Assembly (NCBI GenBank): GCA_009914755.4
Contig: CP086569.2
Span: 2,176,001 to 2,240,000 of the forward strand
Length of the DNA: 64,000 nt
Origin: the human T2T-CHM13v2.0 reference genome, Homo sapiens
Reading direction: 5' to 3'
In this document: positions 794-22,408 of the stretch, one piece after another
Numbering within the stretch: position 1 is the stretch's first letter
Layout of the letters: each line of letters opens with the position of its first letter
Translations under genes and position numbers: made by a program
The notes under the pieces: model-generated
Database searches by the model: none
What the model saw: the letters and a program-made list of their open reading frames with translations, nothing else
Told to the model about the DNA's origin: nothing

Positions 794-1039
794 TTCTGAA
801 CCTGCAAATCTAGGAACAGAAGTTATCTGCATACACAAAACACAGTGGCGGTCATCACTGATGAGTTCAGACAGTGAACGAGTCCTGCAAAGTTGGAGAT
901 CTGTGACTCAGAGATGTTTACAAAGGCCAAGGAAACAAAGTTGCCACTTAACGGGCCTGCCCTCCCCACCAGACCTCCGTGGCTCCCCAGTGCCCGAGAA
1001 GCCGCCTCTGGGCCCCCTCTGGAGACGTCCTCCGGAGAA

Positions 1040-1900
1040 GGGCCCATCCTCACTTACCCTGGGGTGGGTAGGGGTCGAGGTCCCTGGGACGCCCGCTCCT
1101 CCCCTCCGGGGCCTGGCGGGGGCGCGCGGTCACTGGCCGACCGCAGGCGGCAGGCAGAGCCGCCTGATGTCTTGGGCGCGGGGCGTGCGAGCCCCCGGGT
1201 CCCCGGCCATGGCCCGGAGGTGTCAGGGTGCGCGGGGGGGCGGCTGCACGGGGGCTGCTTGGTTGGAGCCCGACCCGGGACAGGCGGGGAGGCCACACGC
1301 GCGGGGAGGGAAGGGTCGGGCCGGGTCGGGCCGGGCCAGGCGCGCAGAAGAGCCGGCGGGGACGGAAAGCGCGGGGCGGGGAGGTCCCAGGCGCGCACGC
1401 CGCCCCCCCCAACCCCCGGCCACACCTCGACCCCCGCCCAGCCCCACTTCCGGGAGCGCCACCGCCTCGCCAAGGTCACGCGGAGCCCCCGCGCCCCCGC
1501 CCCCGAGCCAGCCCGCGCCCACCCGGGTCCCCGGAGCCCTGACCCCTGCCCCGCCCCGCTGACCTGGCTCCAGGAAGCCCCCGCGGCAGCGCCGCAGCAG
1601 CTGCGCCAGGATCACCGCGGCGCCTACCGCGTAGACCCGCAGGGCCGCCCGCGCCGCAGACAATGGCGACATGGCTGCCCCGGCCGCGCCGCCGCCGCTT
1701 CCGCGCCGCCCGCGGGACTCTGCGCCCGCCCGCCCGGACGGACGGCGGAAACGCGCGCGCCCCGGACCGCCCCCTGCCCGCCCCGAACCGCCCCGGCCTG
1801 CGGGGAACCCCCAACCCCAGACCCCGCCCGGGCCCTCTGGGATCCCGCACCGCCTGCAGGACTGGGGACCCCGAGCGGACAACCGACCCCAGCCAGGACA
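1040..1900 (-). promoter_or_regulatory. CpG island spanning the TSS and exon 1 of the minus-strand gene (TATA-less, GC-box-rich promoter)
   Basis: Very high GC with dense non-depleted CpG. Multiple CCGCCC/GGGCGG (Sp1-type) boxes at 1680-1860, immediately 5' (minus-strand sense) of the ATG at 1672. Confidence 0.7.
1564..1672 (-). CDS. DHRSX: First coding exon of a short-chain dehydrogenase/reductase: Met1..Pro36 plus 1 nt (phase 1), ending at a splice donor CCAG|GTCAGC
   Basis: Minus-strand ATG (revcomp of CAT at 1670-1672) in a Kozak context gcagccATGt. Translation is MSPLSAARAALRVYAVGAAVILAQLLRRCRGGFLEP(G/V). It has N-terminal signal-anchor/presequence character and a GT donor after codon 36. 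It matches my recollection of the DHRSX N-terminus (MSPLSAARAALRVYAVGAAVILAQLLRRCRGGFLEPVFPP...), and the phase-1 G fits the next residue Val. In-frame read-through into the intron gives only Gly/Arg/Ala low-complexity sequence. Confidence 0.6.
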
Positions 1901-2700
1901 CCCCCCCCAGGACCACAGACTCCAGCCAGGAACCCCCCCCTGCAAGGACCATAGACTTCAGCCAGGACCCCCCGCCCCAGGACCACAGACCCCAGCCAGG
2001 ACGCCCCCAGGACCACTGACCCCAGTCAGGACCCCCCCTTCAGGACCACAGACCCCAGCAGGGACCCCCCACACACACCCCCAGCCAGGACCACAGACCC
2101 CAGCCAGGAATCCCCCCCAGGACCACAGACCCCAGCAGGGACCCTCCACACCTCCTCCAGGACCACAGACCCCAGCAGGGACCCTTCCCCCTCCCGGCAG
2201 GACTGCAGACCCCAGCAGGGATCCCCACCACCACAAGACCAACAGCCCCAGCCAGGACGCCCCCAGGACTACAGACCCCAGCCAGCACCCAAGTCAGATC
2301 CATAGACTCCTCCCAAGAACACCCCCCAGGACCCCAGACCCCTGCTGGGACCCCCAAGACCACAGGCCCCCCCACTGGGGCACGCCCAGACACCCCACCA
2401 AGAACCCCACCAGGACTACAGACCTCCACCAGGACTCCCCAGTACCACAGATCCTCCCAGGGCCCCCCAGGACCACAGACCTCCACTGGGACCCCCACCA
2501 CCAGGACCCCTCTCCAGGATCACAGACCCCTACTGGGGCCCCCTTCTAGGACCTCCACCTCCATCAGAACCACCCCCCGGACCACAGGCCCCAGCCAGCA
2601 CCCCACAAGACCACAGACCCCTGCCAGGACGCCCCCCAGGACTACAGACCCCAGCTGGACTGCCTCTCCAAGACCCCACACTCCAGCCAAGACCATGGAA
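1860..2700. repeat. GC-rich minisatellite (VNTR-type), ~30-45-bp units CAGGACCACAGACCCCAGCCAGGACCCCCC(n), ~25 copies, decaying into degenerate copies to ~3600
   Basis: Visible periodic GGACCACAGACCCCAGC(C)AGGA[AC]CCCCC units. They generate long Pro/Gln/Thr-rich and Gly/Val/Cys-rich pseudo-ORFs on both strands. Confidence 0.85.
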
Positions 2701-2950
2701 CCCCATTCAAGCCCCAGCCAGGACCCCCACCATGGGATCACAGATCCCCTACCCAGACCCTGCAGGGGACCAGGACCACCACGGGAACCACCCTCCCCAT
2801 CTTAGCCAGAATCATGTAACCCCACGCAGACCTCAGCAGGGACCACAAGGACTTGGACCCCATAGGGAACCCCAGACAACCACCCAGAGCCATGCCAGGA
2901 TTATGGACCAGGACTCCCACAGAGGACTCTGAACAGCTGTAAGGACCATG

Positions 2951-3100
2951 GACCCCACACCCTAATTCGTACTGACACCACAGAACCTGCCCCAAGCACG
3001 GACCCCACACCCCAGTTCCTGCTGACACCACAGAACCTGCCCCAAGCACGGACCCCACACCCCAGTTCCTACTGAGACCACAGACCCCACCCCAATTGCT
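2951..3100. repeat. 50-bp tandem repeat x3 (GACCCCACACCCCAGTTCCTGCTGACACCACAGAACCTGCCCCAAGCACG)
   Basis: 2951-3000 and 3001-3050 are nearly identical. The third unit, 3051-3100, has diverged. Confidence 0.85.
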
Positions 3101-3879
3101 GCCAGGCCACAGACACCACCCACCAAACCTACCCCTCCACTTCCCTGCCCCCAACAACCCTGCAGGGATCACAGACCCCCTTCCCGGCCCCTGCAGAGAA
3201 CTCCAGACTACTTCAGGGACCACGAGCCCCCTCCCCACCCTGATCCCTACTGGGACAGCAGACCCCTACTCAGACCTTGGTTGGGAACCCCAGACAACCA
3301 CAGAGTTACCTGGGCTCCCTCAGGGAACCCCAGACCAGCACAGAACCCCCACCCAGACCCTTACCAGGGCCAAGGCTGAAATCCCACATGGACCCCCCAG
3401 CAGACTCCTACTGGAATTCTTCATGGATCCCCCCACCCAGACACTCAGACCTTCACCCCACCACAACCCTCCCAGTCCCACACCTGGTCCCCCAGGGGAC
3501 CCCAGACCTGGCATCCGGGACTCCACACAGATCCTAACACCCGCTGTGTTTGGGAGACAGGAGCCTGGGAGAGCTGCGGTGACACCATTTTAATCATCAA
3601 CTCCATCTTAAAAACCAGGAAGACACATTCCTTGCCGGTCACGGCCCATGGTCATAAGATGTTTACGGCTGAAGAAATGACTTAATAATGCCTCCAAGGA
3701 CAAACACAGACGACAGCGGAATGTCTGGATGTCGCCATATCGCGTAACCACATATGCTGTTAAAGATAATTACAGTCATGCTTTGACGTGCTTGGGCGCG
3801 AAAATGCAAAGGATGGCTCTCTCTAAATCAACTAAGGAATAAATGTCACGCCGTCAGACATAACCTAGCTTTTACATAG

Positions 3880-9435: not shown

Positions 9436-9892
<457 letters not shown>

Positions 9893-11586: not shown

Positions 11587-12141
<555 letters not shown>

Positions 12142-18483: not shown

Positions 18484-18728
18484 TTTCTTCCTTCCTTCCT
18501 TTCTCTTTCTCTCTTTCTCTTTCTTTTCTTTTTTTCTCTTCCTTCCTTTCTTTCTCTTTCTTTCTTTCTCTTTCTTTCTCTTTCTTTCTTCTCTTTGTTC
18601 TTTCTCTCCTTCTTCTTATTCTTTTGTCTTCTTCCCCTCCCTCCCTCCCTTCCCTCCCTCCCTCCGTCCCTCCCTCCCTTCCTTCCTTCTTTTTTCTTTT
18701 CCTTTCTTTTTTTTTCTTTCTTTCTTTC
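18484..18728 (+). repeat. Polypyrimidine (CTTT/CTTC/CCCT)n tract ~245 bp
   Basis: Pure C/T run including (CCCTCCCT)n at 18641-18675. Abuts the reverse Alu fragment at 18730. Confidence 0.9.
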
Positions 18729-19177: not shown

Positions 19178-20263
<1,086 letters not shown>

Positions 20264-20371
20264 AAAGAAAATTTTTTCCTGATGAGAAAATGTCTGACAG
20301 TTTTCCTCAAAATTTGTATCGTTGTACAGATGTCCAAGTTGGTAGCTCAGGAAGTCTGTAATTACCAACAA

Positions 20372-21505
20372 CATTCTTCATCATCGTCACTGTCATCACC
20401 ATCATCATCATCATCCTCACTGTCACCATCATCACTGTCACCATCATCATCACCCTCATCATCATCATCCTCACCATCATCATCACCATCATCACCATCA
20501 CCATTATCATCCTCACCATCCTCACCATCATCATCATCCTCACCATCATCATCACCATCATCACCATCACCATTATCATCCTCACCATCATCACCATGAT
20601 CATCATCCTCACCATCATCATCACCATCATCACCATCATCCTCACTGTCACCATCATCATCCTCACCATCATCATCACCATCCTCACCATCATCCTCACT
20701 GTCACCATCATCATCCTCACCATCATCATCCTCACCATCATCCTCACCATCATCATCACCATCATCATCCTCACCATCATCATCACCATCATCATCCTCA
20801 CCATCATCCTCACCATCATCATCCTCACCATCATCATCCTCACCATCATCATCCTCACCATCATCCTCACCATCATCATCCTCACCATCATCCTCACCAT
20901 CATCATCCTCACCATCATCATCCTCACCATCATCATCACCATCATCCTCACCATCATCATCACCATCATCCTCACCATCATCATCCTCACCATCATCATC
21001 CTCACCATCACCATCCTCACCATCACCATCATCATCCTCACCATCATCATCCTCACCATCATCATCCTCACCATCATCACCATCACCATCCTCACCATCA
21101 TCATCCTCACCATCATCATCACCATCATCATCACCGTCATCATCACCGCCATCATCCTCATACACATCATCATCATCCTCACCATCATCCTCACCATCAT
21201 CATCCTCACCATCATCATCCTCACCATCATCATCACCGTCATCATCCTCACCATCATCACCGCCATCATCCTCATACACATCATCATCATCCTCACCATC
21301 ATCATCACCATCCTCACCATCATCACTCTCGCCATAATCATCACCATCATCATCCTCGCCATCATCATCGCTGTCGCCATCATCACCATCATCATCCTCA
21401 CCATCACCATCACCACTGTCACCATCATCATCACCATCATCCTCATCGTCACCATCATCATCACCATCTTCATTATCACCATCACCATCATCATTATTAT
21501 CACCA
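20372..21505. repeat. Complex triplet/hexamer minisatellite (CATCAT / CACCAT / CCTCAC)n, ~1.13 kb
   Basis: Uninterrupted strict 3-nt periodicity over more than 1.1 kb (ATCATCATCCTCACCATCATCATCACCATC...). It gives 300-440-aa pseudo-ORFs in all frames (poly-Ile/Thr, poly-Ser/Pro, poly-Asp/Glu/Gly, poly-Met/Val/Arg). Confidence 0.9.
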
Positions 21506-22408
21506 AGCTTAAATGCTTGCTTTGCCCTCTTTTCCAGAGACTCTTGACCTCTGGTTTTACTGTGTGTACCAGAAAAGTCTTCGTAATTATGTGGCCTCTG
21601 ATTGTTTTTTCTAAGAGAGTAAGAGGAATCACGGTGGACGTATTCTGCCTGAATGTGTCGAAACCGTGCTAAGAGCTCTGAACATGAATATTAACATTGG
21701 GTATTTACTTTTCCTGTTCCTACGTGTCTGTTTTTTAAAAAAAACAATTTTATCATGGACATTGAGGATGATACGTTGTGGTGCAGTCAGGTATTTTCCT
21801 TTATAGAAAGAGTCTATTCCTCTATAGAAGAGTCTATCAGACAGTTAGCTTCGCTGGATATACACTTTAATCTTTGTGTTTGCTGAAGTGGGCAGGAGTT
21901 TAAATATCTGCTCAGTTCTTTCAACATCACACTGATGGATTCCTCTTGGTTCTCTGAGGTCTCCCCACACATGCATAATCCAGATGACCAAATATTTGGG
22001 CAGCGTTCAAATCCAGACTTGGAGTTCCCTTAAACCGTTGCATATTCCCCTTTTAAACATTTCCTCCTCGTGTTGCAGGGTCTCTGGCAGCTGCCAGCTC
22101 TCTCGTGACTCTTCAGGCTAGTAAACCTGCAGAAGTTCTCACTTCCCCAGAATTAAGCGACTTTGGGAAGCCCCCTGCAGAAAGGATGTGCAAATGCTAA
22201 TCTTCACAGGGCAGTTCCCCATTTGTCAGAGAGTTCCTCTGCCCACATTTCTGCCTGTTTGGGGCCAAGGGTCTTCACATCGTTTTTTAAAAGGCTTCAT
22301 CCAGAGTTTATCCTTGTGATCTCCGGGACGTTCTGTCCAATACACACTATTCTTCAACGACTGGAAGTGAGAGTCGAGAATTAAGAGCAACTTTAAGGAT
22401 TCAGATTT

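What the first reader, a model, noticed from the sequence alone, without database searches (positions are those of the whole stretch)
20372..21505. 1.1-kb uninterrupted CAT/CAC/CCT triplet-periodic array that mimics coding sequence in every frame
The array keeps a strict 3-nt phase for about 1130 bp. It is therefore open in essentially all six frames, with pseudo-ORFs of 305-441 aa: poly-Asp/Glu/Gly and poly-Met/Val/Arg on the minus strand, and poly-Ile/Thr/Leu, poly-Ser/Pro and a His-rich frame on the plus strand.

No start-codon context, splice sites or unique flanking coding sequence support a gene. The structure is a complex microsatellite or minisatellite built from hexamers (CATCAT, CACCAT, CCTCAC) with higher-order motifs about 36 bp long. 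Triplet arrays this long are unusual in human DNA and are expected to be length-unstable.

Gene predictors are likely to be fooled by this region.
Basis: seen in the sequence. Interest (0 to 1): 0.5.

Follow-up and report, generated by a model that had tools for sequence, protein, structure and literature searches.

The report
Non-coding CAT-triplet minisatellite upstream of DHRSX
This is a real but ordinary 1.1-kb non-coding tandem repeat, grown from a CAT triplet, about 18.7 kb upstream of the DHRSX gene in the X/Y pseudoautosomal region; its protein-like open frames follow from the repeat's three-letter vocabulary and do not indicate a gene.

Summary
The array is real and sits at the stated coordinates (20372-21505). 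In one phase, 347 of 377 triplets are CAT, CAC or CCT, and no indel breaks the 3-nt phase.

Two details of the observation are wrong:
- It is not open in all six frames. Four frames have no stop, one has 2 stops, and the sixth (TGA phase, minus strand) has 222.
- The higher-order periods are 15, 27, 69 and 84 bp. 36 bp is not among them.

A pure (CAT)n is stop-free in five of six frames by construction, so the "coding mimicry" is automatic.

The window holds DHRSX exon 1 at 1672-1564 on the minus strand. The array therefore lies in primate pseudoautosomal region 1 (PAR1), about 18.7 kb upstream of that gene.

Nothing supports a gene:
- The two most protein-like frames (Asp/Glu/Gly and His/Pro) contain no ATG.
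- No related protein turned up in 5.8 billion clusters or 1.84 billion representatives, although a control shows a copy would score E <= 1e-40.
- There is no Pfam match.

Neither strand folds, there is no canonical G-quadruplex motif, and there is no PRDM9 motif.

Best reading: a compound triplet-derived minisatellite that grew by in-register slippage and unequal exchange. Its length instability is plausible but could not be tested with these tools. Low interest.

The parts
20372..21505 (.). Whole triplet-phase tandem array, 1134 bp. The + strand is C/A/T with only 18 G in the 1131 nt counted (20373-21503).
20372..20702 (.). Degenerate 5' zone. It holds 11 of the 30 variant triplets (TGT, TAT, CGT, GAT and others) and a 69-bp block duplication (20457-20520 = 20526-20589).
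20703..21134 (.). Homogeneous core: 144 consecutive triplets that are only CAT, CAC or CCT. It is built of 12-bp and 15-bp units (27 bp when paired). It contains an exact 71-bp repeat at lag 84 (20783-20853 = 20867-20937).
21135..21505 (.). Degenerate 3' zone. It holds 19 of the 30 variant triplets (CGT, CGC, ACA, TAT and others). A block carrying CGT...CGC...ACA occurs twice, about 102-114 bp apart.
20597..20599 (+). TGA, the first of the two stops that break the Ser/Pro (+TCA) frame.
21335..21337 (+). TAA, the second stop in the Ser/Pro frame.
21611..21628 (-). Acceptor-like string ttcctcttactctcttag just upstream of the array on the minus strand. This is only a resemblance to the consensus and was not scored.
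   Evidence: read from the sequence
20360..20368 (-). Donor-like string TTG|gtaatt just downstream of the array on the minus strand. It overlaps the TAA that closes the Asp/Glu/Gly frame. This is only a resemblance to the consensus.
   Evidence: read from the sequence
20000..20264 (+). Context: the 3' part of a MaLR (THE1/MST-type) LTR, ending about 100 bp before the array. I recognised it from memory of the consensus and did not test it.
   Evidence: own knowledge
1564..1672 (-). Context: coding part of DHRSX exon 1 (MSPLSAARAALRVYAVGAAVILAQLLRRCRGGFLEP), followed by the donor CCAG|gtcagc. It places the window in PAR1.

Best explanation
The array is a non-coding, compound minisatellite (VNTR-type array) derived from a (CAT)n = (ATC)n/(GAT)n trinucleotide repeat. 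It lies in intergenic DNA of primate pseudoautosomal region 1, about 18.7 kb upstream of DHRSX exon 1.

Proposed history, which is inferred:
1. A CAT microsatellite picked up two point variants: CAT to CAC, a T>C transition, and CAT to CCT.
2. Blocks carrying these variants (CATCATCATCCTCAC, CATCATCCTCAC) were amplified by replication slippage and unequal exchange between misaligned copies.
3. Misalignment is only stabilised when the underlying triplets are in register. Every gain or loss is therefore a multiple of 3, and the phase is kept without any selection on a reading frame.
4. Continued turnover keeps the centre homogeneous, while the two edges, which exchange less, accumulate substitutions.

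The open reading frames are a by-product. The + strand has almost no G, and its A is nearly always followed by T or C, so TAA, TAG and TGA cannot form. On the minus strand only the phase complementary to TCA reads a stop (TGA). A pure (CAT)n gives exactly this five-of-six pattern.
For: Shown here:
- Strict 3-nt phase and a restricted triplet vocabulary.
- Unit lengths of 12 and 15 bp, and block duplications at lags 27, 69, 84, 123, 213, 297 and 381, all multiples of 3.
- The 30 variant triplets cluster at both ends, with none in the central 144 triplets.
- One frame holds 222 stops, as a CAT-derived array predicts.
- The Asp/Glu/Gly and His/Pro frames hold no ATG.
- Codon use is almost monotone: GAT 209 against GAC 11, GGT 81 against GGC 5, and Pro only as CCT.
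- Protein searches were negative: four frames against 5.8 billion clusters gave nothing or one weak plant zinc transporter.
- An exhaustive HMMER search of 1.84 billion representatives gave only two unrelated low-complexity proteins. One is a 2006-aa protein with EPKEGRSPG repeats (86 bits, 29% identity). The other is a 332-aa protein with GESDD repeats and an LPYTG motif near its C-terminus.
- The control shows that even half of the core would score 155-165 bits, E <= 1e-40, at that database size.
- No frame has a Pfam match.
- Location: the DHRSX exon 1 peptide matches proteins named 'Dehydrogenase/reductase X-linked', and the exon is followed by a splice donor.
- The same 15-bp unit occurs independently in an unrelated contig, so the motif arises easily.

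From the literature:
- PAR1 has a 17-fold excess of male crossover, and many of its PRDM9 peaks are minisatellite-like repeats of period 4-101 bp (PMC4102438).
Against: - No second haplotype or orthologous copy could be obtained, so variability, the defining property of a VNTR, is not shown.
- Transcription and translation could not be examined.
- Consensus-like splice strings bracket the array on the minus strand (acceptor-like at 21628-21611, donor-like at 20368-20360). An unannotated exon is therefore not formally excluded.
- There are no frame-breaking 1-2-bp indels next to 30 variant triplets. This is mildly fewer than neutral decay might give. My rough estimate, from the usual indel-to-substitution ratio of about 1:10, is 2-3 expected, so about 5-15% chance of seeing none.
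- The protein collection has imperfect recall. Full-length human DHRSX was not returned.
Confidence: 0.88

Rival explanations
1. The array is an unannotated, lineage-specific coding exon on the minus strand. It would encode an acidic Asp/Glu/Gly-rich disordered segment and be spliced in through the acceptor-like and donor-like sites that flank it. The alternative is a His/Pro-rich segment on the plus strand.
For: - Both frames are stop-free over 442 and 388 codons.
- The strings ttcctcttactctcttag|A (21628-21611) and TTG|gtaatt (20368-20360) bracket a 1245-nt open stretch whose length is a multiple of 3.
- The commonest variation, CAT to CAC, is synonymous in the His frame.
Against: - Neither frame has an ATG.
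- No related protein was found in 5.8 billion clusters or 1.84 billion representatives, although the control shows high detectability.
- There is no Pfam match.
- Codon use is monotone and unlike human coding usage (the human usage figures are my own knowledge).
- Openness is fully explained by the triplet vocabulary.
- The flanks are transposon remnants and unique non-coding-looking DNA, and the array lies outside DHRSX.
Confidence: 0.03
2. The array is a functional cis element of PAR1 and not neutral DNA. It could be a platform or hotspot for meiotic double-strand-break machinery, by analogy with the mouse PAR mo-2 minisatellite. It could also be a length-dependent regulator of the neighbouring DHRSX/ZBED1 promoter, like ATRX-bound VNTRs.
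For: - It lies in PAR1, 18.7 kb from the DHRSX CpG-island promoter.
- The literature proposes that repeats contribute to PAR recombination in mouse and possibly human (PMC9575207; PMC4102438).
- ATRX affects ancestral-PAR genes, including Dhrsxy, in mouse (PMC7432156).
Against: - The array holds no PRDM9 13-mer (CCNCCNTNNCCNC). All 10 window matches lie elsewhere.
- It has no canonical G-quadruplex motif, and only one G run exceeds 2 (a single run of 3).
- Neither DNA strand folds; the minimum free energy is 0.
- The G4-capable, GC-rich arrays that fit the ATRX model are at 1877-3121, not here.
- No binding or break data can be consulted with these tools.
Confidence: 0.06
3. The length or internal order of the array is an assembly artefact: a collapsed, expanded or mis-ordered repeat in the source assembly.
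For: Long low-complexity arrays are hard to assemble, and the source and technology of the window are unknown.
Against: - The array has a coherent architecture, with degenerate edges, a homogeneous core and unique junctions on both sides.
- Nothing in the sequence (runs of N, abrupt breaks) suggests misassembly.
- Even a wrong length would not change what the element is.
Confidence: 0.03

Closest known systems
Human minisatellites / VNTRs, including the classical PAR1 minisatellites (DXYS14, DXYS15, DXYS17, DXYS20; recalled from own knowledge)
   Same: - Head-to-tail array about 1 kb long.
- Units of 12-15 bp with interspersed variant repeats and higher-order blocks.
- Located in the recombination-rich pseudoautosomal region.
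- Homogeneous centre with diverged edges.
   Different: - The classical hypervariable minisatellites are GC-rich, with a G-rich strand and core or PRDM9-like motifs.
- This array is 46% GC, has no PRDM9 13-mer, and is built from a triplet, so all its units are multiples of 3.
- Its variability has not been shown.
Imperfect or compound trinucleotide microsatellite, (ATC)n/(GAT)n class
   Same: - 3-nt periodicity throughout.
- CAT is 56% of triplets.
- Five of six frames are open, as for pure (CAT)n.
   Different: - It is far longer than typical trinucleotide microsatellites (378 triplets).
- It is organised into 12/15/27/69/84-bp higher-order units and is not a pure tract.
Protein-coding tandem-repeat exons (for example DSPP, mucins, acidic-repeat proteins such as ACRC/GCNA; own knowledge)
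   Same: Triplet-phase repeat, long open frame, monotone codon use, and an acidic or Ser/Pro-rich translation.
   Different: - The protein-like frames hold no ATG.
- No homologous or identical protein exists in the collections searched, and there is no Pfam match.
- It lies in intergenic DNA next to an LTR remnant.
Structure-forming unstable triplet repeats (CAG/CTG, CGG/CCG, GAA/TTC) and G4-forming ATRX-target VNTRs
   Same: A triplet-based array that is expected to misalign during replication.
   Different: - Neither strand forms hairpins (MFE 0).
- It is not a homopurine/homopyrimidine tract; the + strand is 71% pyrimidine.
- It has no (G3+N1-7)4 motif.
Mouse PAR mo-2 minisatellite (PMC9575207 and references therein)
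   Same: A minisatellite array inside a pseudoautosomal region.
   Different: - There is no sequence relation.
- mo-2 forms large clusters that bind the break-forming machinery. No such data exist here, and this is a single 1.1-kb array.

Membership tests
Minisatellite / VNTR | Head-to-tail tandem copies of a unit of about 10-100 bp, many copies | tested here: met
   TRF finds period 15 x 75.8 copies, 27 x 40.8 and 69 x 16.2. Parsing gives 15-bp units (14 copies) and 12-bp units (6 copies) plus variants.
Minisatellite / VNTR | Interspersed variant repeats and higher-order block structure | tested here: met
   Exact block repeats lie at lags 27, 69, 84, 123, 213, 297 and 381. Variant triplets cluster at the edges.
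Minisatellite / VNTR | Copy number varies between haplotypes | not testable with these tools
   No other copy of the locus could be reached. The flank scan of metagenome contigs gave 0 hits. The core-motif scans gave one unrelated contig and 0 genome contigs.
Classical hypervariable GC-rich minisatellite (recombination-hotspot type) | G-rich strand with a core or PRDM9-like motif | tested here: not met
   The array holds no CCNCCNTNNCCNC. It is 46% GC, and only one G run on the G-bearing strand exceeds 2 (a single run of 3).
Trinucleotide microsatellite (ATC/GAT)n | A 3-nt unit repeated in phase | tested here: met
   Self-identity is 0.69-0.79 at multiples of 3 and 0.15 at other lags.
Trinucleotide microsatellite (ATC/GAT)n | An essentially pure tract of one unit | tested here: not met
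   CAT makes up only 211 of 377 triplets. CAC (88) and CCT (48) are organised in longer units.
Protein-coding repeat exon | Open frame with a start codon or demonstrated splicing | tested here: inconclusive
   The frames are open, but the Asp/Glu/Gly and His/Pro frames have no ATG. Splice-like strings are present but were not scored, and no transcript data are available.
Protein-coding repeat exon | A corresponding or homologous protein is known or predicted elsewhere | tested here: not met
   Searches were negative or gave only unrelated low-complexity hits. The control shows a copy would score E <= 1e-40. Exact look-ups were negative, and there is no Pfam match.
Protein-coding repeat exon | Frame conserved across species with synonymous-biased change | not testable with these tools
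   No orthologous sequences are available.
Structure-forming unstable triplet repeats | Single strands form hairpins, triplexes or G4 structures | tested here: not met
   The DNA minimum free energy is 0 kcal/mol for both strands, no better than shuffles. There is no canonical G4 motif, and the + strand is 71% pyrimidine.
PAR meiotic-break platform (mouse mo-2-like) | Binding of REC114/MEI4/IHO1/ANKRD31 and enrichment of meiotic breaks | not testable with these tools
   Only the location in PAR1 is shown.

The most novel reading that the evidence does not exclude
The array is not neutral. In the first version, its strictly maintained reading phase reflects use as a primate-specific coding or translated exon for an acidic Asp/Glu/Gly-rich peptide, spliced through the flanking acceptor-like and donor-like sites. 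In the second version, it is one of the human PAR1 repeats that helps recruit the machinery for the obligatory X-Y crossover, a functional analogue of mouse mo-2 that works without a PRDM9 motif.
Probability: 0.05. Interest if true: 0.6.

Novelty: already known. Interest (0 to 1): 0.1.

Why it matters
- It matters little as a discovery. It is one more tandem array in a region known to be rich in them, and the appearance of coding sequence has a trivial cause.
- It has some practical value. ORF-based or composition-based gene callers should mask it: it offers four stop-free frames of 388-453 codons and splice-like strings at both ends.
- As a long in-phase array in PAR1 it would be a convenient locus for measuring in-register slippage and unequal exchange in male meiosis, using long-read pedigrees.
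- The more relevant repeats for DHRSX regulation are probably the G-rich arrays right at its promoter (window 1877-3121), not this one.

Tried and rejected
**Searches that led nowhere**
- No paper contains the core motif in either orientation.
- The Rfam scan of the whole window found nothing.
- The exon-1 peptide was too short as a 36-aa query and was repeated with 44 aa.
- Concatenated Met/Val/Arg, His/Pro and Ile/Thr/Leu translations against 5.8 billion protein clusters gave one weak His-rich plant zinc transporter. The Asp/Glu/Gly frame gave none.
- An exhaustive HMMER search with the Asp/Glu/Gly frame gave two unrelated low-complexity proteins.
- Exact look-ups of the 441-aa and 358-aa ORFs found nothing on record.
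- The aim of fetching other alleles or orthologs by DNA failed. The left-flank 29-mer had 0 hits in metagenome contigs. The 37-mer core gave one unrelated 1.2-kb contig and 0 hits in prokaryotic genome contigs.
- The repeat finder on the array only reproduced the periodicity.

**Ideas considered and rejected**
- Hairpin-driven instability: the minimum free energy is 0 for both strands.
- G-quadruplex or ATRX-target VNTR: no G3 runs. Only two-tetrad-type GG motifs are present, and I judge these too weak. With G-quadruplexes allowed, the fold chose only a G-U hairpin.
- H-DNA: the array is not homopyrimidine.
- PRDM9 hotspot array: no motif.
- A known protein domain: none.
- The phage, plasmid and E. 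coli BLAST collections were not used. They cannot contain a primate locus, and their low-complexity filter would remove the query.

Full report

Yes, with corrections. The region 20372-21505 is a continuous tandem array.

TRF reports it at 20378-21505 with periods 15 (75.8 copies), 27 (40.8) and 69 (16.2), and scores of 968-1055. It is the highest-scoring tandem repeat in the 64-kb window.

Read in the CAT phase, 347 of 377 triplets are CAT (211), CAC (88) or CCT (48).

Base identity between the array and itself is 0.69-0.79 at every shift that is a multiple of 3. It is 0.15 on average, and at most 0.18, at all other shifts. The 3-nt phase is therefore never broken.

A 22-nt core, allowing up to 2 mismatches, matches 53 times. 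All matches lie inside the array and in one phase, against none in 100 shuffles of the window. None of 1000 shuffles of the array has even one stop-free frame.

- The array is not open in all six frames. Four frames have no stop: +CAT (His/Pro), +ATC (Ile/Thr/Leu), -GAT (Asp/Gly/Glu) and -ATG (Met/Val/Arg). The +TCA (Ser/Pro) frame has two stops, TGA at 20597 and TAA at 21335. The sixth frame reads TGA 217 times and has 222 stops in all.
- The proposed higher-order period of about 36 bp is not a peak; lag 36 scores 0.727. The peaks are at 15 (0.790), 69 (0.782), 54 and 27.

Splitting the array at CCTCAC gives these units:

| Unit | Length | Copies |
|---|---|---|
| CATCATCATCCTCAC | 15 bp | 14 |
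| CATCATCCTCAC | 12 bp | 6 |
| longer variants | various | remainder |

**2. Anatomy**

The array has three zones.

| Zone | Coordinates | Content |
|---|---|---|
| 5' edge | 20372-20702 | 11 of the 30 variant triplets |
| Core | 20703-21134 | 144 triplets, only CAT, CAC or CCT |
| 3' edge | 21135-21505 | 19 of the 30 variant triplets |

The variant triplets at the edges include TGT, CGT, CGC, TAT and ACA.

Exact internal repeats of 55-71 bp occur at shifts of 27, 69, 84, 123, 213, 297 and 381 bp, all multiples of 3. Blocks of units have therefore been duplicated in register.

The + strand has only 18 G in the 1131 nt counted, and the array holds 10 CpG. The seven TGT triplets are plausibly deaminated CGT; this is inference.

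**3. Why it looks like coding sequence**

This follows from the vocabulary alone.

- The + strand has almost no G, and its A is nearly always followed by T or C. TAA, TAG and TGA therefore cannot form on that strand.
- On the other strand, only the phase complementary to TCA gives a stop (TGA).
- A pure (CAT)n is open in exactly five of six frames. The two stops in the Ser/Pro frame come from single substitutions.

No selection on a reading frame is needed.

The absence of 1-2-bp indels is only mildly notable. There are 30 variant triplets, some of them copies of one event. With the usual ratio of about one small indel per ten substitutions (own knowledge, rough), I would expect two or three. 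The chance of seeing none is on the order of 5-15%, and turnover also removes out-of-register copies.

**4. Where it is**

The minus strand at 1672-1564 encodes MSPLSAARAALRVYAVGAAVILAQLLRRCRGGFLEP, followed by the splice donor CCAG|gtcagc.

This peptide matches two short proteins:

| Hit | Identity | Name given by the source |
|---|---|---|
| P0002, *Rousettus aegyptiacus* (bat) | 81% | Dehydrogenase/reductase X-linked (UniRef) |
| P0001, *Prionailurus iriomotensis* (cat) | 89% | hypothetical protein |

From memory, the peptide is identical to the N-terminus of human DHRSX.

The exon sits in a CpG island: 800-2200 has GC 0.73 and CpG observed/expected 0.69. Alu-derived ORFs are scattered through the window, so the source is a primate.

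DHRSX lies in pseudoautosomal region 1 (PAR1) of X and Y (own knowledge). The array is therefore intergenic PAR1 DNA, about 18.7 kb upstream of the DHRSX start codon and outside the gene.

Immediately to its left is the 3' end of a MaLR (THE1/MST-type) LTR, ending near 20264. I recognised this from memory and did not test it.

PAR1 has a male crossover rate 17-fold above the genome average. Many of its PRDM9 binding peaks are minisatellite-like repeats of period 4-101 bp (PMC4102438). The window itself carries several other arrays.

**5. Is it a gene?**

No evidence says so.

- The two most protein-like frames, Asp/Glu/Gly and His/Pro, have no ATG at all.
- Codon use is monotone: GAT 209 against GAC 11, GGT 81 against GGC 5, GAG 49 against GAA 3.
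- Stop-to-stop translations including the unique flanks were searched against 5.8 billion protein clusters. The Met/Val/Arg, His/Pro and Ile/Thr/Leu frames together gave one weak hit, a His-rich plant zinc transporter at E = 9e-4. The Asp/Glu/Gly frame gave none.
- An exhaustive HMMER search of 1.84 billion representatives with the Asp/Glu/Gly frame gave two proteins, both unrelated low-complexity sequences. One is a 2006-aa protein with EPKEGRSPG repeats (86 bits, 29% identity). The other is a 332-aa protein with GESDD repeats and an LPYTG motif near its C-terminus.
- Exact look-ups of two window ORFs found nothing.
- No frame has a Pfam match.

Low-complexity queries can be silenced by HMMER's composition filters, so I ran a control. 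At the same database size, the query finds the following at E between 1e-40 and 1e-173:

- itself;
- a 10%-mutated copy;
- the core alone;
- half of the core;
- the core embedded in a random protein.

The negative results are therefore informative.

Two caveats remain.

- The collection's recall is not perfect: full-length human DHRSX was not returned.
- On the minus strand the array is bracketed by an acceptor-like string (ttcctcttactctcttag|A, 21628-21611) and a donor-like string (TTG|gtaatt, 20368-20360). A predictor could build a 1245-nt pseudo-exon from these. I found no sign that any has.

**6. Physical properties**

- Neither strand of the core folds as single-stranded DNA. The minimum free energy is 0 kcal/mol, no better than shuffles. 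One strand lacks G and the other lacks C.
- There is no canonical G-quadruplex motif. G runs are 1 or 2 long, apart from a single run of 3.
- The + strand is 71% pyrimidine, so it is not a triplex-forming mirror tract.
- The human PRDM9 13-mer occurs 10 times in the window, never in the array.

Any instability would therefore come from plain misalignment of repeats, through slippage or unequal exchange. Structure-forming strands or an embedded hotspot motif would not be the cause.

**7. Mechanism**

The shown steps are the triplet ground plan, units of 12 and 15 bp, block duplications in register, a homogeneous centre and degenerate edges.

The inferred history is as follows. A CAT microsatellite acquired CAC and CCT variants. 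Blocks carrying them were amplified by slippage and unequal sister or homologue exchange. Misalignment is only stable in triplet register, so all length changes are multiples of 3. Turnover homogenises the centre while the edges decay.

The same 15-bp unit, four exact copies within a ~300-bp tract of CAT/CAC-type triplets, occurs in an unrelated metagenome contig with different flanks. The motif therefore arises independently and easily.

**8. What could not be done**

No other haplotype or orthologous copy could be reached. The tools hold no human or ape assemblies and no transcript or peptide data.

It is plausible given the array's length, its homogeneous core and its PAR1 location.

**9. 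Verdict**

This is a real, ordinary, non-coding compound minisatellite of triplet origin in PAR1. The 'six frames' and '36 bp' details are wrong. The 'unusual' and 'unstable' claims are untested, and the 'fools gene predictors' claim found no support in the collections searched. Interest is low.

Noticed in passing
window 1564-1672 (minus strand); CpG island about 800-2200: The coding part of DHRSX exon 1, followed by the splice donor CCAG|gtcagc, sits in a CpG island (GC 0.73, CpG observed/expected 0.69). This places the whole window in pseudoautosomal region 1.
   Followed up: partly
window 1877-3121: A block of GC-rich minisatellites directly beside the DHRSX promoter, with units of 33, 40, 50, 70 and 77 bp (consensus GGACCACAGACCCCAGCCAGGACACCCCCCCCA). 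It is C-rich on +, so G-rich on the DHRSX-sense strand. Eight of the window's 13 minus-strand canonical G4 motifs lie in 1512-3479. This is the kind of repeat linked to ATRX-dependent expression, which has been reported for mouse Dhrsxy (PMC7432156).
   Followed up: partly
window 1671-2549 (+) and neighbouring ORFs in 861-3593: Several long overlapping ORFs of 130-353 aa lie on both strands, rich in Pro, Gly and Arg. They most likely reflect the high GC content and the GC-rich repeats, not genes.
   Followed up: no
window 56061-56549: A 50-bp minisatellite with 9.9 copies and 84% matches (unit GGGATTAGGACGTGGACATCTTTGGGGGCCATTATTCTGTCTACCACATG). It is the second clearest true tandem array in the window.
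   Followed up: no
window 60496-60883: A 130-bp unit repeated 3 times, itself built of GATG/GATA tetramers: a microsatellite organised into a higher-order repeat. It parallels what happened to the CAT array.
   Followed up: no
window 9438-9740, 18484-18727, 58967-59121, 11589-11735: Long impure tetranucleotide tracts of (TTTC)n, (CCCT)n, (AAAG)n and (GATA)n types. Together with the arrays above, they show a high density of tandem repeats in this 64-kb stretch.
   Followed up: no
L001 (Ga0126335_1110529) about 455-720: An unrelated 1.2-kb metagenome contig, probably eukaryotic, carries four exact CATCATCATCCTCAC units within a ~300-bp tract of CAT/CAC-type triplets. Its flanks are different, so this is an independent origin of the same unit.
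   Followed up: partly
window 21611-21628 and 20360-20368 (minus strand): Acceptor-like and donor-like strings bracket the array. They would delimit a 1245-nt pseudo-exon that is open in the Asp/Glu/Gly and Met/Val/Arg frames. No matching protein exists in the collections searched.
   Followed up: partly
(protein collection): The DHRSX exon-1 peptide retrieved only two short fragments, from bat and cat, and not full-length human DHRSX. The word-indexed protein search can miss expected relatives when the query is very short.
   Followed up: no
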